This document shows positions 5,367 through 34,653 of a stretch of DNA of 64,000 nucleotides, piece by piece. The stretch lies in the NCBI GenBank assembly GCA_036253495.1, contig GCA_036253495.1_4125.1. The stretch is one strand, 5' to 3'. The position numbers and the translations under genes are program-made. The notes below the pieces were generated by a model, which was not told the DNA's origin, searched no databases, and saw only the letters and a program-made list of their open reading frames with translations. The DNA comes from a phage. The first letter of the stretch is position 1. Every line of letters starts with the position of its first letter.

Positions 5367-5741
5367 ATGAGTGTACTAGATATTATTGTTTCAAAAGTAC
5401 TGATACCGTTCTGGAAACCAATTGCGTTTGTTCTCCTGATGGCATCATGTACTTTTGGTGGCTGGAAGGCTAATACTTTTTATACTGGGTATAAAGAAAG
5501 TATTGAATTAAAAATAGAGAAGAAAGTAGATGCGGCTTTAAGTAAAATTGAAAGCCAAAATACCAAAAACTATGTAGAAACTAAACAGATAATGCAAAAT
5601 AATGCAAAGGTAATAGAAACTAAAGTACCAGTTATTATTGAGCGTGAAGTGTATAGAAATGTATGTTTAGATGAAGAAGGGGTAAAACTTTTGAATGATC
5701 TAAAACAAAATTCACTTGCAGCTAGAGAGAAATTTAAATGA
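5367..5741 (+). CDS. putative i-spanin (inner-membrane spanin subunit)
   Basis: N-terminal TM segment followed by a charged coiled-coil-like region; immediately precedes and overlaps a lipoprotein gene. Confidence 0.5.
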   Translation: MSVLDIIVSKVLIPFWKPIAFVLLMASCTFGGWKANTFYTGYKESIELKIEKKVDAALSKIESQNTKNYVETKQIMQNNAKVIETKVPVIIEREVYRNVCLDEEGVKLLNDLKQNSLAAREKFK

Positions 5742-6052
5742 AATACATATTAACATTCTTGATTACTTTTATGTTTATCACTGGGTGTTCTAATAAGGTT
5801 CCAGTTCAAGCGTCACCAATAATCACCCAGGAAATCTTATTAGAACGATGCGAAGAAGATACACCAATTCCTAAAAAAATTGTTGTTGACTCACATGGTA
5901 ATAGAGGATATGCTGGTGATGAAATTCTTAACGTTCTGACGCGTTGGGATTCCATGTACAATGAATGTGCACTGAGATATGATGCACTAATTGATACAAT
6001 TCGCAAACTCCAAGACCAAAATATTCGTGTTAACATAAAAGTTAAGGAATAG
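5738..6052 (+). CDS. putative o-spanin (outer-membrane lipoprotein spanin subunit)
   Basis: Signal peptide ending in lipobox FITGC; small periplasmic protein; 4-nt overlap with the upstream i-spanin-like ORF. Confidence 0.55.
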   Translation: MKYILTFLITFMFITGCSNKVPVQASPIITQEILLERCEEDTPIPKKIVVDSHGNRGYAGDEILNVLTRWDSMYNECALRYDALIDTIRKLQDQNIRVNIKVKE

Positions 6053-6053
6053 T

Positions 6054-6665
6054 ATGTCTAAATATCATGTTTATTATGTAACCAAATTGAGTTTACTAGA
6101 TGAACTCAATCATACTAGTACCAAAATGAAACGTTATACTTATAATGGTATTACTTTCAGATACTTTCCACAAAAAGTACTAACATTCGTTAAGAATTGT
6201 AAGTGCGTTGCTTGTGGCATCGAGGCTACAGAAGTTCGAATCGAACGTTCTAACTGTAGTGATCCGGTATATGGTAAACCGCATTTAAATGTGTATGCAG
6301 TATGTGGTCTTTATGAAGTTATGATGACTGTAGATCATAATCATCTTGCATCTAAAGGTGGTGCTGATTTGGAGTCAAACTTCAATACTATGTGTGCGAG
6401 ATGTAATCAGTTGCGTTCAAATAAAACTGAAACAGTTGATGAATTCCTTGAGAAAGTCAAAAGCCGAAATCTACTTGAAGAACATATGAATCGTTATTTC
6501 AATAAGATTGAGAAGGAAAGTAAACGTCCTACACCAGAAATGCTCGAAGAACGTAGATTGCGTCAAGAGCTATGGGATAACGATCATCTGTGGCATGTTC
6601 GTGAGTACGGGCGACACATGAAAGCATTAAAAAAGGCACAAAAGCTGTTGGATAAACATGAGTAA
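6054..6665 (+). CDS. HNH endonuclease (homing-endonuclease-like)
   Basis: CxxC...VDHNH...N...CxxCN motif set typical of HNH nucleases. Confidence 0.7.
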   Translation: MSKYHVYYVTKLSLLDELNHTSTKMKRYTYNGITFRYFPQKVLTFVKNCKCVACGIEATEVRIERSNCSDPVYGKPHLNVYAVCGLYEVMMTVDHNHLASKGGADLESNFNTMCARCNQLRSNKTETVDEFLEKVKSRNLLEEHMNRYFNKIEKESKRPTPEMLEERRLRQELWDNDHLWHVREYGRHMKALKKAQKLLDKHE

Positions 6666-11742: not shown

Positions 11743-12327
11743 ATGGGTAAACTTATTTTCTTTAGTGGGAGTATGTCATCAGGAAAGAGTACACATCTTT
11801 TACAGAACGCATATAACCACAAGAAGAACGGGATGAAAGTCATCTACTTAACGAGTGCATTAGATGATCGTTATGGTACTGGTAAAATAACATCGAGAAT
11901 CGGTATAGAATCTGAAGCTCAAGTTATTCCAAAAGATGACCTAAGCGTTATTCATGACGTAATAAAACTATTACAGGTTGACAATGATTATAATAGTATC
12001 TACGTTGATGAATGTCAGTTTTTAAATCGAAAACAAATTGATTTATTAGCCGATATTGCTGATGAGCATATGGTTGATGTATATTGTTATGGTATTAAAA
12101 CCGATTTTGAATCAAATACATTTGAAGGTTCTCAAAGGTTATTTGAAATAGCAGATGAGATCCATGAATTAAAGAACGTATGTGAAAATCAAAAGTGCGG
12201 AAGAAATGCTATAATGAATGCTCGCATCGTAGATAGTACTGATAAAGTGTTTATTGGTGGTGATGAATCATATAAGAGCCTGTGTAGAAAATGTTATAAA
12301 AACTATATGAGGAATAAAAATGGTTGA
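11743..12327 (+). CDS. tk: thymidine kinase
   Basis: P-loop FFSGSMSSGKST, IYVDECQF Walker B-like segment and C-terminal Cys zinc ribbon; ATG at 11743 after an AAGGA RBS. Confidence 0.85.
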   Translation: MGKLIFFSGSMSSGKSTHLLQNAYNHKKNGMKVIYLTSALDDRYGTGKITSRIGIESEAQVIPKDDLSVIHDVIKLLQVDNDYNSIYVDECQFLNRKQIDLLADIADEHMVDVYCYGIKTDFESNTFEGSQRLFEIADEIHELKNVCENQKCGRNAIMNARIVDSTDKVFIGGDESYKSLCRKCYKNYMRNKNG

Positions 12328-12553
12328 TAAACTACTTAAAAATATTGCAGTACGCTTGTTGGATGGTTTTGTTGATACAGTGAAACTACTATTCAGTACT
12401 GCAATGAGCATTTTAGTAATATTGATGTTCGCATTAGTATTACATTTCGTACCAGTATGGATTGTAATTACTGCAATTGTCGTTCTACTTATCATCATCT
12501 CGTATTTCACATATCGTGAAGAATTGCAAGAGTTGCTTGATAAAGATGACTAA
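12320..12553 (+). CDS. small membrane protein (holin-like candidate)
   Basis: 77 aa with two hydrophobic TM-like segments and a charged C-terminus. Confidence 0.35.
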   Translation: MVDKLLKNIAVRLLDGFVDTVKLLFSTAMSILVILMFALVLHFVPVWIVITAIVVLLIIISYFTYREELQELLDKDD

Positions 12554-13493: not shown

Positions 13494-13628
13494 ATGATGA
13501 AAGGATTAAAGAAATTTGGATCGGATTTTGTTAAGTGTATTCGCTACACTTATGATGCAAATCCAGAAATGACCGCCATTGTCGGTGTGTTTATTACATT
13601 AGTTGTGTTAAGCTTTGTAGTGGTGTAA
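13494..13628 (+). CDS. small membrane protein (44 aa)
   Basis: Unlisted short ORF with AAGGAAA RBS and a hydrophobic C-terminal segment. Confidence 0.25.
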   Translation: MMKGLKKFGSDFVKCIRYTYDANPEMTAIVGVFITLVVLSFVVV

Positions 13629-14042: not shown

Positions 14043-14127
14043 CCTATAGGTTTGTCATACAATTGGCTAAATAAAATGGGTATTAATATACCCATAATTA
14101 TAACCAAAAGAAATATCAAGATTTTAC

Positions 14128-14155
14128 TTGATATGAAATTGAAAGATGCTATACT
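14128..14155 (+). promoter_or_regulatory. sigma70-like promoter (TTGATA-16-TATACT)
   Basis: Hexamers with 16-nt spacing upstream of the lysozyme-like gene. Confidence 0.35.
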
Positions 14156-14289
14156 ACTTACATGTACAGAATGAAAGTTACCTTTTCAGTACTGAAAGTA
14201 TTGTAGAAAGTCCGATGAGGCTTTTGCAAATGGCCTCATAAGCCCTCTTTGTAATTGCTCATCATAACACGCAAACAAAGGAGGCGTTT

Positions 14290-15216
14290 TTGACAATAGC
14301 GATACAAACACCTAAAACTAAGACAGCTATAGGCTTATTAGTTTCACTTGTTATCATCGCTGCGTTTGGATTTTATGGTTTTTCTCAACATGATCGTGCA
14401 TCATCATCGGGCGAAAGTCAGGTGCACAATTTAAAACCGCAAGTTACACAAATTCAAAAGCAGGAATTACCTAAAGGGTATACACCTAAAGTAGTTCCAG
14501 GCAGCGAGAAACATTATACTGTTGAATACGGTGATAGTTATCATTCGATAGCTAAGAAGTTTAAACCGCATAATGTGTTGTTTGAAGATTACGTTACAGT
14601 ATTGAAGAATATCAATCTTAATGCTAAACTTCATACATCGCAGGGTATCTTTATCCCAACAAAAGAGGATTTGAAAGACGTACTGTTACCTGATGTGGTA
14701 GTACTTTTCGATTATAATGATCCTGAAATAGTAGCACACATCAAAGAAGCTGAAGGTTCAATTGAATTTCAGTCCAAGAACAAAAGACGTTTACTTGGGG
14801 GAAAAGTTGGAGTTCCTTTCTACAATTCAAAATTTCATCCTTATAAGGATATGAAAGGTAACTACACAATCGCATATGGTCACTACCTCGGTCCACGTGA
14901 ATCAGATGCTATAAAATATAGGAATGGTATCACAGTTACTGAAGCCCATAACTTGTTACTCACTGATATGAAAAGAATCAATGATGAATTGATTCTATTA
15001 TTGAAGAAGAAAAATGCAACATATCTCACAGTTGAACAACAAATAATACTATTTGATATGGCATTTACTTTAGGTATTAATAAGCTCAATACTTTTAATA
15101 AGTTATGGAAAAGTGTTGAAAAAAGGAATGCAAAAAAGTTTAAAAAAGAAATTAAGAATTCACTATGGTATAGACAAGTTGGGAAACGTGGGGAATTATT
15201 AGTTAATAATTTGTAA
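14290..15216 (+). CDS. membrane-anchored LysM plus T4-lysozyme-like (GH24-like) protein
   Basis: TTG start 7 nt after AAGGAGG; N-terminal TM; LysM-like YTVEYGDSYHSIAKKF; C-terminal YKDMKGNYTIAYGH...WYRQ resembles the T4 lysozyme core. Confidence 0.6.
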   Translation: MTIAIQTPKTKTAIGLLVSLVIIAAFGFYGFSQHDRASSSGESQVHNLKPQVTQIQKQELPKGYTPKVVPGSEKHYTVEYGDSYHSIAKKFKPHNVLFEDYVTVLKNINLNAKLHTSQGIFIPTKEDLKDVLLPDVVVLFDYNDPEIVAHIKEAEGSIEFQSKNKRRLLGGKVGVPFYNSKFHPYKDMKGNYTIAYGHYLGPRESDAIKYRNGITVTEAHNLLLTDMKRINDELILLLKKKNATYLTVEQQIILFDMAFTLGINKLNTFNKLWKSVEKRNAKKFKKEIKNSLWYRQVGKRGELLVNNL

Positions 15217-15220
15217 TTAT

Positions 15221-15244
15221 AGGGATGTTTAACATCCCTTTTTA
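15221..15244 (+). terminator. rho-independent terminator
   Basis: agggatg-tttaa-catccct hairpin followed by TTTT. Confidence 0.6.
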
Positions 15245-15260: not shown

Positions 15261-15893
15261 ATGCTATATAATATTGGTATTATGGACGTACCTGGTGATG
15301 GTAACATAAAATCTCCTGATAATAAAATATATAAAACATGGTGTTCAATCTTTGTTAGATGCTATTCGCCAATATCACTAAAAAAACGCCCAACGTATGA
15401 ATTAACCGAAGTATGTGATGAATGGAAACTATATTCAAACTTCAAAAAATGGTATATAAGTAATTATATAGAAGGTTACTTTCTTGATAAAGATATTATT
15501 GATGGTACTTCTAATATTTACTCACCATATACTTGCTCGTTTGTTCCAAACATTATAAATTGTTGTATTTTGGATGGGAATTCAAAAAACTCTAATCTAC
15601 CAATTGGTGTTCATTATAGACCGAAAGGGAAAGATATGGTCAACGAATTTTCGAATCCATATCAAGCAAGACTCTGGAAATATAAAAAACGTGTATCACT
15701 CGGATGTTATCCTACACCATATGATGCACATAAAGCGTGGCAATTTGGTAAGAAAGAATACTTATTAGAATTGATTAACGACTATAGTGATAAAGTTACC
15801 CCTGAAGTTGTTGTCGGTTTACAACGTAGAATTGATATACTAACCGATGATATAAAAAAATGTAGAATTACAAATTCAATCAGTAAAATATAG
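15261..15893 (+). CDS. hypothetical protein, possible AP2-like DNA-binding / homing-endonuclease-like
   Basis: GVHYRPKGK...YQARLW...LGCYPTPYDAHKAW resembles the AP2 domain pattern; no HNH catalytic motif seen. Confidence 0.4.
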   Translation: MLYNIGIMDVPGDGNIKSPDNKIYKTWCSIFVRCYSPISLKKRPTYELTEVCDEWKLYSNFKKWYISNYIEGYFLDKDIIDGTSNIYSPYTCSFVPNIINCCILDGNSKNSNLPIGVHYRPKGKDMVNEFSNPYQARLWKYKKRVSLGCYPTPYDAHKAWQFGKKEYLLELINDYSDKVTPEVVVGLQRRIDILTDDIKKCRITNSISKI

Positions 15894-15898
15894 AGAGG

Positions 15899-16237
15899 TT
15901 GTATATGCTAAATCTAGTTATTCAAGGTAATGTTGATATTACTCCAGCAATCCATGACGCAATTCATCAAGAAGCAAACACTCTAAATAAATTTAGTGAT
16001 TCTTCAGTACTGAATATTGGTGTTCATGTGAAAAAAGAGCATAAGACACAGTACGCAGTAACTTTAACATCAGGTGGTAAGTCTGTTACTGCCGATGATG
16101 CAGATTTATACAAGGCGATTGTCGATTCATTCGAAAAAATGGAAACTGTATTCAGTAAAGACAAAAGCATTAAATTGCACCGCCGAAACCATCCAGACCG
16201 TCCAGTTGTAGTTGATGTAACTGACGAAGAAGAGTAA
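15899..16237 (+). CDS. hypothetical protein
   Basis: ORF followed by a terminator. Confidence 0.5.
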   Translation: MYMLNLVIQGNVDITPAIHDAIHQEANTLNKFSDSSVLNIGVHVKKEHKTQYAVTLTSGGKSVTADDADLYKAIVDSFEKMETVFSKDKSIKLHRRNHPDRPVVVDVTDEEE

Positions 16238-34308: not shown

Positions 34309-34653
34309 ATGATACCACAACCCACTAACAGCACTGAATTTCAAAATGAAGTACTTATAAAAGTTAAAGAAGTACATGAATCGGACGCTGAAATCACTGA
34401 CAGAATGCTTCTGATGTCTATTTTTGAAAACTTCAGAACTGGTGGTGGTTTGAGGCTTAGTAAGTATGGATTTATGATTTGTGAAGAAAATAATCTTTAT
34501 GAATTTACAAAAATCCCCTTGCTAAGAGAGTTCAAAAGCTCTATAATATTTACATCGCTTGATAGAATATGTAGAAGTCCTTATTATGTTGATGGCTACT
34601 ACATATATCTCTCCGATGCAATGGTAGTTACTGAATTAACATTGTGTCGGTGA
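34309..34653 (+). CDS. hypothetical protein
   Basis: ORF; no motif recognised. Confidence 0.45.
   Translation: MIPQPTNSTEFQNEVLIKVKEVHESDAEITDRMLLMSIFENFRTGGGLRLSKYGFMICEENNLYEFTKIPLLREFKSSIIFTSLDRICRSPYYVDGYYIYLSDAMVVTELTLCR

What the first reader, a model, noticed from the sequence alone, without database searches (positions are those of the whole stretch)
14290..15216. Membrane-anchored LysM/lysozyme-like protein with TTG start and no obvious catalytic Glu
The ORF starts at TTG 7 nt after a perfect AAGGAGG and encodes an N-terminal TM segment, a LysM-like motif and a T4-lysozyme-like core (YKDMKGNYTIAYGH). The residue aligned by eye to T4 lysozyme Glu11 is not acidic, while the Asp20 and Thr26 equivalents are present. 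It may be a signal-anchor-release endolysin variant or a non-catalytic peptidoglycan-binding protein. Lysis genes appear dispersed: spanins at 5367-6052 and a holin-like small membrane ORF at 12320.
Basis: partly seen in the sequence, partly recalled or inferred. Interest (0 to 1): 0.4.

Follow-up and report, generated by a model that had tools for sequence, protein, structure and literature searches.

The report
Membrane-anchored LysM lysozyme of jumbo phage
This gene encodes an ordinary, catalytically complete phage lysozyme with a membrane anchor and a cell-wall-binding domain, already described as the predicted endolysin of Rak2-like jumbo phages; the "missing" catalytic glutamate is present but shifted by a 23-residue insertion.

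Summary
The ORF at 14290-15216 (+) is real. It has a TTG start 5 nt after AAGGAGG and encodes 308 aa. The window is an Asteriusvirus (Rak2-like jumbo coliphage). The protein is the ortholog of 121Q gp532, phAPEC6 gp293 and CBB_187. Buttimer et al. (2017) already described this family as a TM-LysM-lysozyme predicted endolysin that is toxic in E. coli.

The claim of "no catalytic Glu" is wrong. E155-G156 is invariant in 46 homologs and in 10 more distant relatives. It aligns with the catalytic EG of the paralogous 162-aa T4-type lysozyme, whose UE-S1 ortholog LysUE1 is active, and with T4 Glu11. A 23-residue insertion lies between Glu155 and Asp187, and 13 of those residues are shared with the paralogs. 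This insertion misled a fixed-spacing alignment by eye. D187 and T193 are invariant, and an AlphaFold model matches the T4 lysozyme fold.

Residues 73-123 form a genuine, divergent LysM domain. Residues 13-31 form an N-in/C-out anchor. Whether the anchor is releasable (SAR) is undecided. Orthologs were not found in virion proteomes.

The gene is a stand-alone transcription unit. A hairpin that sequesters the Shine-Dalgarno sequence, together with non-ATG starts, is conserved across genera.

Verdict: an ordinary, known kind of protein, of low interest.

The parts
14076..14095 (+). Hairpin closing the upstream transcription unit (terminator-like)
   Evidence: The scan reports the palindrome on the minus strand. 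The same position holds a hairpin with changed stem bases in K64-1, and a clear GC-stem plus T-run terminator in a metagenomic relative.
14128..14155 (+). Candidate sigma-70-type promoter with extended -10 (TTGATA-16 nt-TGcTATACT)
   Evidence: 10 of 12 consensus matches, with TG before the -10. The -10 is conserved in A4 and phAPEC6. The number of such sites in the region is not above chance, so this is a candidate only.
14215..14239 (+). First 5'-UTR hairpin (GAUGAGGC...GGCCUCAU)
   Evidence: Present in the MFE and centroid folds and conserved in phAPEC6.
14242..14285 (+). Second 5'-UTR hairpin, in which GCCCUCUUUG pairs with the Shine-Dalgarno region CAAAGGAGGC
   Evidence: Seen in the folds (z about -2.2 to -2.5). 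The equivalent SD pairing occurs in 9 of 9 lineages, with compensatory changes at offsets -3 and -4. Accessibility of the translation initiation region ranks 5th lowest of 48 genes in the window.
14278..14284 (+). Shine-Dalgarno AAGGAGG, 5 nt before the start codon
   Evidence: Read directly from the sequence.
14290..15216 (+). Coding sequence: 308-aa TM-LysM-GH24 lysozyme with a TTG start
   Evidence: Full-length match to phrog_15410 at 1.2e-144. 71 jumbo-phage records carry one ortholog each.
14326..14382 (+). Residues 13-31, AIGLLVSLVIIAAFGFYGF: N-in/C-out transmembrane anchor (possibly SAR)
   Evidence: Hydropathy. A24 is invariant, and A25, G27 and G30 are nearly invariant.
14383..14505 (+). 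Residues 32-72: low-complexity, predicted disordered linker with a conserved IQKQ motif
   Evidence: pLDDT below 50 for residues 1-71. Length varies in the family alignment, and I55 is invariant.
14506..14658 (+). Residues 73-123: divergent LysM domain
   Evidence: Beta-alpha-alpha-beta unit in the model. The family profile hits LysM chains in the PDB at down to 2.7e-9. 37 of 46 homologs hit Pfam LysM at E<=0.1.
14722..15213 (+). Residues 145-308: GH24 (T4-type) lysozyme domain
   Evidence: Pfam PF00959. Foldseek probability 1.00 to T4 lysozyme, TM-score about 0.6 on the target.
14752..14754 (+). Codon GAA for Glu155, the catalytic general acid (T4 Glu11 equivalent)
   Evidence: Invariant E155-G156. 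Aligned to the EG of phAPEC6 gp242, of gp241 and of T4 lysozyme. It sits at the C-terminal end of the first helix of the domain, 145-156.
14758..14826 (+). Residues 157-179: 23-residue insertion relative to T4 lysozyme, between the catalytic Glu and Asp
   Evidence: MAFFT alignment with the paralogs and T4L. 13 residues are shared with gp241 and gp242, and 10 are extra. Q161, R166, L168 and G171 are invariant.
14848..14850 (+). Codon GAT for Asp187 (T4 Asp20 equivalent)
14866..14868 (+). Codon ACA for Thr193 (T4 Thr26 equivalent)
15221..15244 (+). Intrinsic-terminator-like hairpin AGGGATGTTTAACATCCCT followed by TTTTT, 5 nt after the stop codon
   Evidence: A terminator is annotated at the same place in phage Munch.
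5367..6052 (+). Spanin pair: i-spanin 5367-5741 and lipoprotein o-spanin 5738-6052. These are presumed lysis partners, about 8 kb upstream.
   Evidence: phrog_1152 'Rz-like spanin' at 7.9e-26. Lipobox ITGC and a 4-nt overlap between the two ORFs.

Best explanation
The ORF encodes the Rak2-like jumbo-phage TM-LysM-GH24 muramidase, a catalytically complete T4-type lysozyme.

Shown:
- The catalytic triad equivalents Glu155, Asp187 and Thr193 are present and invariant.
- The middle domain is a LysM domain.
- The N-terminus is a hydrophobic segment with positive charges on its N side.

Inferred:
- The segment acts as a Sec-dependent type II signal anchor. It places the LysM and lysozyme domains in the periplasm without needing a holin.
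- A disordered linker of about 40 residues lets the LysM domain dock on glycan strands.
- The GH24 domain then cuts MurNAc-GlcNAc bonds, with Glu155 as general acid.
- The enzyme serves as the phage's endolysin, or as one of two. It acts with the spanin pair at 5367-6052.
- It is held in check until late in two ways: by membrane tethering, with release on depolarisation if the anchor is a SAR domain, and by restrained synthesis.

The evidence for restrained synthesis is that the gene is an insulated unit (terminator, promoter-like site, gene, terminator) with a weak TTG start and a 5'-UTR hairpin that pairs with the Shine-Dalgarno sequence.

My confidence differs by step: competent muramidase about 0.95, exported or anchored in the periplasm about 0.85, endolysin role about 0.6, and SAR-type release about 0.35.
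For: Catalytic competence:
- E155-G156, D187 and T193 are invariant in 46 homologs. The EG is kept in 10 further relatives at 33-45% identity.
- BLASTP of residues 140-308 against the paralog phAPEC6 gp242 gives E 1.7e-23 and spans the EG motif. MAFFT lines up E155 with the EG of gp242, of gp241 and of T4 lysozyme (Glu11-Gly12).
- The gp242 ortholog LysUE1 carries the shared 13-residue insertion and is lytic in vitro (PMC12805682).
- The AF2 model has pLDDT above 90 for residues 72-308, with E155 at the end of the first helix. Foldseek top hits are T4 lysozymes at probability 1.00.

LysM.

Anchor.

Not a virion protein: phAPEC6 gp293, the ortholog, was not detected by virion mass spectrometry (PMC7247149). 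CBB_187, also an ortholog, occurs only in the cell-wall-enzyme section of the CBB paper and not in its structural-protein table.

Spanins.

Transcription unit and translational throttle.
Against: - No experiment exists on any member for activity, topology, release or lysis role.
- The gene is not in a lysis cassette. Across genera it sits in a conserved block of nucleotide and RNA metabolism genes: tk, CCA-adding enzyme, nudix, glutaredoxin and macro domain.
- It has a sigma-70-like rather than a late-type promoter candidate.
- The same genomes encode a soluble 162-aa T4-type lysozyme (gp242/LysUE1) that is also absent from virion proteomes and could be the true endolysin.
- The anchor has fewer Gly/Ala/Ser/Thr residues (0.37) than the R21 and P1 SAR domains (0.53-0.63). 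In this window it is more hydrophobic on a crude additive scale (-0.96 against about +0.5 to +0.8 kcal/mol) (the reference sequences and the scale were recalled from memory).
- An AxA-like motif (consensus LAAA|FG) could be a signal-peptidase site.
- SD occlusion in this window is only moderate (rank 5 of 48).
Confidence: 0.6

Rival explanations
1. Accessory periplasmic muramidase, not the lysis endolysin. The soluble 162-aa T4-type lysozyme encoded in the baseplate cluster (ortholog of phAPEC6 gp242 and LysUE1) does the holin-dependent lysis. The anchored LysM enzyme has another job, such as local peptidoglycan remodelling during the long jumbo-phage cycle, or a backup or lysis-accelerating role.
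For: - LysUE1 is active in vitro.
- gp242 orthologs were not confirmed as structural proteins.
- The anchored gene lies among metabolic genes, with a sigma-70-like promoter candidate.
- Translation appears throttled.
Against: - gp242 sits between the baseplate hub and a gp25-like gene, which suggests a tail-assembly role for it instead.
- No non-lysis role for an anchored GH24 enzyme is known.
- Toxicity of CBB_187 on induction fits a holin-independent endolysin.
Confidence: 0.25
2. Secreted rather than anchored. The N-terminal segment is a cleavable Sec signal peptide, cut after the conserved AAA/IAA motif at about residue 25. Cleavage would yield a soluble periplasmic LysM-lysozyme.
For: - The segment has an n-region with K9 and K11, a hydrophobic core of about 11 residues, and then A24-A25 (family consensus LAAA|FG).
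- One distant relative, P0064, has a short, classical-looking signal peptide.
Against: - Conservation continues through the putative mature N-terminus (G27 and G30 nearly invariant, FGFxGF), as expected for a full 19-residue helix.
- Three distant relatives carry the hydrophobic segment internally, after a cytoplasmic domain of about 90 residues. There it cannot be a signal peptide.
- Free active lysozyme in the periplasm would kill the host early.
- No signal-peptide predictor was available.
Confidence: 0.1
3. [quoted passage not shown]
For: - Record annotations say so.
- The second-best PHROG hit is a baseplate hub/tail lysozyme family at 1.5e-16.
Against: - That PHROG hit covers only the shared lysozyme domain, residues 143-305.
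- The protein lacks gp5 OB-fold and hub domains.
- phAPEC6 gp293 was not detected in virions, whereas the true hub lysozyme gp241 was.
- CBB_187 is not in the CBB structural table.
- It has an N-terminal membrane anchor.
Confidence: 0.03
4. Non-catalytic peptidoglycan-binding protein: a lysozyme fold that has lost its general acid.
For: Only that the residue nine positions before D187 (Y178) is not acidic, and that HMMER/hhalign local alignments to T4 lysozyme start after the Glu.
Against: - E155-G156 is invariant across the whole family and its distant relatives.
- It aligns to the catalytic EG of active paralogs.
- D187 and T193 are also invariant.
Confidence: 0.02

Closest known systems
CBB_187 / 121Q gp532 / GAP32 gp180 / RaK2 gp506 / phAPEC6 gp293 (predicted endolysin of Rak2-like jumbo phages; Buttimer et al. 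2017, PMC5259590)
   Same: Orthologous: 76% identity to 121Q gene 532 and phAPEC6 gp293, and 52% to CBB_187 and GAP32 gp180. It has the same three-part architecture, length and genomic neighbourhood.
   Different: Nothing of substance. The nearest record in the phage collection (phage A4) is 85.7% identical. A 100% identical protein is already in GenBank, on a 352-kb contig labelled E. coli O157.
T4 lysozyme (gene e product), GH24
   Same: Same fold and the same catalytic Glu/Asp/Thr triad.
   Different: There is a 23-residue insertion between Glu and Asp and a 12-15 residue deletion after the GH motif. It also has an N-terminal anchor, linker and LysM module, whereas T4 E is a soluble, holin-dependent, single-domain enzyme.
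Paralogs in the same phages: the 162-aa T4-type lysozyme (phAPEC6 gp242; LysUE1 of UE-S1, PMC12805682) and the C-terminal domain of the baseplate hub protein (gp241)
   Same: Same GH24 sub-family, with the motif EG[ST]xxYQ...KF[YW]xY[KL]D and an insertion at the same site. Identity to gp242 is 34%, E 1.7e-23.
   Different: The paralogs have a 13-residue insertion and this protein has 23. gp242 is soluble and single-domain. gp241 is an 887-aa virion protein.
SAR endolysins of the T4-lysozyme family (P1 Lyz, phage 21 R21, phiKMV gp45)
   Same: An N-terminal hydrophobic segment with N-in/C-out polarity in front of a GH24 domain, and predicted holin-independent export.
   Different: The anchor is separated from the catalytic domain by about 110 residues (linker plus LysM). 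There are no cysteines, so P1-type disulfide caging is impossible. The helix carrying E155 is formed independently of the anchor, so R21-type refolding is unlikely. The anchor is also less Gly/Ala-rich.
Modular endolysins of Gram-negative jumbo phages (KZ144 of phiKZ, EL188 of EL)
   Same: An N-terminal peptidoglycan-binding module followed by a C-terminal catalytic module, in a jumbo phage of a Gram-negative host (comparison made in PMC5259590).
   Different: Those enzymes use a PG_binding_1-type domain and a lytic transglycosylase-type catalytic domain, and they have no membrane anchor (from PMC5259590 and general knowledge; not tested here).

Membership tests
GH24 / T4-type phage lysozyme (Pfam PF00959) | Sequence match to the family model above the curated threshold | tested here: met
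   35.2 bits against a cut-off of 22.3, residues 183-301. All 46 homologs match.
GH24 / T4-type phage lysozyme (Pfam PF00959) | T4 lysozyme fold | tested here: met
   AF2 model with pLDDT above 90 over residues 72-308. Foldseek probability 1.00 to many T4L entries, with target TM-score about 0.6 and alignments of up to 175 columns on 164-residue targets.
GH24 / T4-type phage lysozyme (Pfam PF00959) | Catalytic general-acid Glu (T4 Glu11) at the end of the first helix, followed by Gly | tested here: met
   E155-G156 is invariant and aligns with the EG of gp242, of gp241 and of T4L. The helix spans 145-156. No residue-level structural superposition was available.
GH24 / T4-type phage lysozyme (Pfam PF00959) | Asp20 and Thr26 equivalents | tested here: met
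   D187 and T193 are aligned by HMMER to T4L D20 and T26 and are invariant.
GH24 / T4-type phage lysozyme (Pfam PF00959) | Muramidase activity | not testable with these tools
   The only evidence is activity of the paralog ortholog LysUE1 (PMC12805682) and unpublished toxicity of CBB_187 (PMC5259590).
LysM domain (Pfam PF01476) | Sequence match to the LysM model | tested here: inconclusive
   The window copy is below threshold (12.7 bits against 20.9, E 0.12, residues 76-92 only). At family level the match is clear: 37 of 46 homologs hit at E<=0.1, best 9.6e-6. A profile of residues 70-130 hits solved LysM domains such as LytE at 2.7e-9, Ecp6 at 6e-7 and SleL at 1.1e-5.
LysM domain (Pfam PF01476) | Beta-alpha-alpha-beta fold of about 45-50 residues | tested here: met
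   Model elements are E74-77, H84-91, H98-108 and E119-122, at pLDDT above 90. A BFVD LysM fragment aligns over 52 columns at rmsd 1.5.
LysM domain (Pfam PF01476) | Binding of GlcNAc-containing glycans (peptidoglycan) | not testable with these tools
   Needs a binding assay.
SAR (signal-arrest-release) endolysin | N-terminal transmembrane segment with N-in/C-out polarity preceding the catalytic domain | tested here: met
   Residues 13-31, with K9 and K11 on the N side and a polar, acidic stretch after it. The topology is inferred, not measured.
SAR (signal-arrest-release) endolysin | Weakly hydrophobic anchor rich in Gly/Ala/Ser/Thr that can leave the bilayer | tested here: inconclusive
   The GAST fraction is 0.37, against 0.53-0.63 in R21 and P1 Lyz. 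The additive insertion score is -0.96 in the window copy. The family mean is +0.45, similar to R21 and P1, and two members carry a Glu in the segment. The scale and reference sequences were recalled from memory.
SAR (signal-arrest-release) endolysin | Anchor adjoins the catalytic domain and controls it (disulfide caging as in P1 Lyz, or refolding as in R21) | tested here: not met
   There is no cysteine in the protein. The anchor is separated from the first catalytic helix by about 110 residues, including a folded LysM domain.
SAR (signal-arrest-release) endolysin | Sec-dependent export and release on membrane depolarisation | not testable with these tools
   Needs fractionation with and without an uncoupler, and secA dependence.
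Virion-associated tail lysozyme (T4 gp5-like hub) | Presence in the virion proteome and gp5-type OB/hub domains | tested here: not met
   Ortholog gp293 was not detected, while hub gp241 was. CBB_187 is absent from the structural table. Only the lysozyme domain matches the hub PHROG.

The most novel reading that the evidence does not exclude
This reading has three parts.
1. The enzyme is not a classical SAR endolysin. It is a permanently tethered muramidase that reaches the sacculus through its ~40-residue linker and LysM domain.
2. Its timing is set mainly at the level of translation, by a conserved hairpin that sequesters the Shine-Dalgarno sequence plus a non-AUG start codon. This echoes the early-transcript hairpin of T4 gene e.
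3. It works alongside a second, soluble T4-type lysozyme, so Rak2-like jumbo phages would use a two-lysozyme lysis scheme, or the anchored enzyme would have a non-lysis peptidoglycan-remodelling role.
Probability: 0.2. Interest if true: 0.45.

Novelty: already known. Interest (0 to 1): 0.17.

Why it matters
The main value is as a correction. The apparent loss of the catalytic glutamate comes from aligning by eye at fixed spacing, so there is no pseudo-enzyme here.

The protein belongs to a family described in 2017 but never tested. Public records annotate it inconsistently, as lysozyme, endolysin, tail lysozyme, baseplate hub, LysM protein or hypothetical protein.

Three points remain modestly interesting:
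- Which of two non-virion lysozymes is the endolysin of Rak2-like jumbo phages?
- Is a membrane anchor that sits far from the catalytic domain released or permanent?
- What is the role of the conserved translational throttle?

Modular, LysM-bearing lysozymes acting on Gram-negative hosts are also of some applied interest as enzybiotics.

Tried and rejected
- Direct phmmer, Pfam and hhalign comparisons with T4 lysozyme all start at residue 182-183 and cannot place the Glu. The paralogs solved this. Deleting residues 157-179 in silico lets BLASTP extend to T4 E11-G12, but with only a small gain (37.0 against 34.3 bits).
- Foldseek gave no residue-level alignment, so there is no measured superposition of E155 on Glu11.
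- tblastn of T4L and of the ORF against the window found no second lysozyme gene. A weak hit at 34414-34545 is an unrelated 114-aa ORF.
- The T4 late-promoter motif TATAAATA occurs twice in the window, against 8.8 expected, and neither copy is near the gene.
- RNAalifold on a MAFFT alignment of the 5' UTRs found only 4 pairs, because the 5' arms are out of register between genera. I replaced it with per-sequence folds anchored on GGAG.
- Literature searches for experiments on this family, or for transcriptomes of Rak2-like phages, found only the 2017 prediction. The PA5oct omics paper lists no ortholog.
- The 77-aa ORF at 12320 could not be confirmed as a holin.
Full report
**What is there.** The ORF at 14290-15216 on the + strand is real and encodes 308 residues. 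TTG at 14290 is the only in-frame start upstream of the hydrophobic segment. The reading frame opens at 14242, and the next start is a GTG at codon 45. Phages A4 and phAPEC6 have the same TTG and Shine-Dalgarno (SD) arrangement in their deposited annotations.

**Origin of the window.** Megablast and tblastn place the window in the genus Asteriusvirus. These are the Rak2-like jumbo myoviruses of enterobacteria, with genomes of 320-386 kb. The nearest record in the phage collection is Escherichia phage A4, at 85.7% protein identity. A 100% identical protein is already in GenBank, on a 352-kb contig labelled E. coli O157. Seventy-one phage records each carry one full-length ortholog. The protein matches phrog_15410 ('unknown function') end to end at 1.2e-144.

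**The catalytic glutamate.**
- Pfam Phage_lysozyme is matched above threshold, but only from residue 183. phmmer against the PDB and hhalign against T4 lysozyme also start at 182-183. These alignments fix D187 and T193 as the Asp20 and Thr26 equivalents but say nothing about Glu11.
- In an alignment of 46 homologs (45-87% identity to the window protein), the invariant columns include K152, E155, G156, D187, G190, T193 and the YGH motif.
- The same phages carry two paralogous GH24 domains: the 162-aa T4-type lysozyme phAPEC6 gp242 and the C-terminus of the 887-aa baseplate hub protein gp241.
- BLASTP of residues 140-308 against gp242 gives E 1.7e-23 over an alignment that includes the EG motif.
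- MAFFT lines up HIKEAEGS (window) with EIKEFEGT (gp242), ELKEYEGT (gp241) and MLRIDEGL (T4), so E155 corresponds to T4 Glu11.
- Relative to T4 lysozyme there is a 23-residue insertion (residues 157-179) between the Glu and the Asp. Thirteen of these residues are shared with the two paralogs.
- The UE-S1 ortholog of gp242, LysUE1, has been purified and lyses E. coli (PMC12805682). An insertion at this site is therefore compatible with activity.
- A search of 1.8 billion representative proteins found ten more distant relatives with the same overall architecture (33-45% identity in the domain). All keep the EG.
- The AlphaFold model is confident from residue 72 to 308 and puts E155-G156 at the C-terminal end of the first helix of the domain (145-156), as in T4 lysozyme. 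Foldseek returns T4 lysozymes at probability 1.00.
- I could not obtain a residue-level structural superposition.

**The other two modules.**
- *Anchor.* Residues 13-31 (AIGLLVSLVIIAAFGFYGF) have a Kyte-Doolittle mean of 2.31. They are preceded by K9 and K11, which implies an N-in/C-out orientation. A24 is invariant, and A25, G27 and G30 are nearly invariant.
- *Linker.* Residues 32-72 are low-complexity, variable in length and predicted disordered.
- *LysM.* Residues 73-123 form a beta-alpha-alpha-beta unit in the model. The window copy alone is a sub-threshold LysM hit. However, 37 of 46 homologs hit Pfam LysM at E<=0.1. A profile of this segment finds solved LysM domains at E 2.7e-9 to 1e-5, some over nearly the full domain. 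It is a divergent but genuine LysM domain.

**What is already known.** Buttimer et al. (2017, PMC5259590) described CBB_187 and its homologs GAP32 gp180, 121Q gp532 and RaK2 gp506. They called it the predicted endolysin of Rak2-like phages, with an N-terminal transmembrane domain, a weak LysM domain and a C-terminal lysozyme domain. They compared it with SAR endolysins and reported that induction inhibits E. coli growth, with data not shown. I confirmed that 121Q gene 532, CBB_187 and GAP32_180 are orthologs of the window ORF. In phAPEC6 the ortholog is gp293. The phAPEC6 paper states that gp293 was not detected by virion mass spectrometry, whereas the hub lysozyme gp241 was (PMC7247149). CBB_187 does not appear in the CBB structural table. 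I found no experimental study of any member.

**Mechanism.** Steps supported by evidence here:
- a complete GH24 active site;
- a LysM module;
- an N-terminal hydrophobic segment with positive-inside polarity;
- absence from virions;
- a spanin pair 8 kb upstream. 5367-5741 matches the 'Rz-like spanin' PHROG at 7.9e-26. The overlapping 5738-6052 begins with a lipobox.

Steps that are inferred:
- Sec-dependent, holin-independent export with the catalytic part in the periplasm;
- docking on glycan strands via the LysM domain;
- cleavage of MurNAc-GlcNAc bonds with E155 as general acid;
- a role as endolysin.

**Is the anchor a SAR domain?** This is open. On a crude additive insertion scale the family mean (+0.45) resembles R21 and P1 Lyz, but the window copy is more hydrophobic (-0.96). 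The Gly/Ala/Ser/Thr content is lower, at 0.37 against 0.53-0.63 (the references and the scale were recalled from memory). Neither known SAR control mechanism can apply. The protein has no cysteine, and the anchor is about 110 residues from the catalytic domain. Distant relatives vary in how they are targeted. Three have the hydrophobic segment after a cytoplasmic domain of about 90 residues, and one looks like a cleavable signal peptide. What appears conserved is export or tethering of LysM-GH24, not a particular release device.

**Main rival.** The main rival is that the soluble gp242-type lysozyme is the lysis enzyme and this protein is accessory. In favour of this:
- Across genera the gene sits in a conserved block of nucleotide and RNA metabolism genes (tk, CCA-adding enzyme, nudix, glutaredoxin, macro domain), not in a lysis cassette.
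- Its best promoter candidate is sigma-70-like.

**Regulation (found in passing).** The gene is an insulated unit:
- an upstream hairpin at 14076-14095, which is a clear terminator in a relative;
- a promoter-like site at 14128-14155;
- a 5' UTR of about 130 nt;
- the gene;
- a terminator-like hairpin at 15221-15244.

In the UTR, GCCCUCUUUG (14242-14251) pairs with the SD region CAAAGGAGGC. I folded the -80 to +12 region of ten orthologs from four named genera: Asteriusvirus, Mimasvirus, Eneladusvirus and Alcyoneusvirus. Phage Munch has no genus assigned. In nine distinct sequences (A4 is identical to the window here), the first G of GGAG is always paired. The helix is kept by compensatory changes: A-U against U-A at offset -3, and C-G against A-U at offset -4. 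Z-scores reach -6. Start codons of the ten are TTG in seven, GTG in two and ATG in one. By contrast, 42 of 48 SD-bearing ORFs in this window start with ATG. In the window itself the occlusion is moderate, with accessibility ranked 5th lowest of 48. This looks like a conserved translational throttle on a toxic exported enzyme. It recalls the SD-sequestering hairpin of early T4 gene e transcripts (from memory; not checked here).

**Verdict.** This is a catalytically complete, modular, membrane-targeted GH24 lysozyme from a family already described and annotated. It is of low interest and is already known. The open questions that remain are the two-lysozyme arrangement, the fate of the anchor and the 5'-UTR hairpin.

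Noticed in passing
window 14242-14285 (and the equivalent positions in L002, L004, L006-L011): A 5'-UTR hairpin pairs an upstream anti-SD with the Shine-Dalgarno sequence of the lysozyme gene. The pairing is kept in 9 of 9 lineages, with compensatory changes. 9 of 10 orthologs also use TTG or GTG starts. This looks like a conserved translational throttle and resembles the early transcripts of T4 gene e. In this window the occlusion is only moderate (rank 5 of 48).
   Followed up: partly
window 15261-15893: A 210-aa ORF matches only the C-terminal half of HNH homing-endonuclease PHROGs (phrog_953 positions 198-403 of 420, E 6e-59). It sits between the lysozyme gene and the HPF-like gene. Phage A4 has no gene there (lysozyme is followed directly by the HPF-like gene), so it is probably a truncated mobile-element insertion.
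   Followed up: partly
window 15899-16237: A 112-aa ORF is related to ribosome hibernation factor HPF/RaiA ('sigma 54 modulation protein/S30EA'). It lies next to the lysozyme gene in several genera of Rak2-like phages, though not in K64-1.
   Followed up: no
window 5367-6052: A two-component spanin pair. The i-spanin is a PHROG Rz-like hit at 7.9e-26. An overlapping 104-aa lipoprotein (lipobox ITGC) is the likely o-spanin. The pair is followed by an HNH-like ORF at 6054-6665.
   Followed up: partly
window 12320-12553 and 13494-13628: Two small membrane ORFs lie upstream of the lysozyme gene: a 77-aa ORF with two hydrophobic segments and an acidic C-terminus, and a 44-aa ORF with a C-terminal hydrophobic tail. 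K64-1 has ORFs of matching size in matching positions (gp026 after tk; gp031 'membrane protein'); their homology to the window ORFs was not tested. Both window ORFs match only unknown-function PHROGs. They are holin or antiholin candidates, but untested.
   Followed up: partly
proteins P0058-P0067: More distant members of the TM-LysM-GH24 family differ in membrane targeting. P0063, P0065 and P0066 have a domain of about 90 residues before a Ser/Thr/Ala-rich hydrophobic segment. P0064 has a short signal-peptide-like N-terminus. P0093 has an anchor fused directly to the 13-residue-insertion type of lysozyme, without LysM.
   Followed up: partly
L003 9410-13009 (phAPEC6 gp241-gp243): Each Rak2-like genome has three GH24 domains that share the EG[ST]xxYQ motif and an insertion after the catalytic Glu: the hub protein, a 162-aa soluble lysozyme next to it, and the anchored LysM protein. 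This suggests duplication within the lineage.
   Followed up: partly
GenBank records listed: [quoted passage not shown] In some Salmonella phage records the gene is split across two or three hypothetical proteins.
   Followed up: yes
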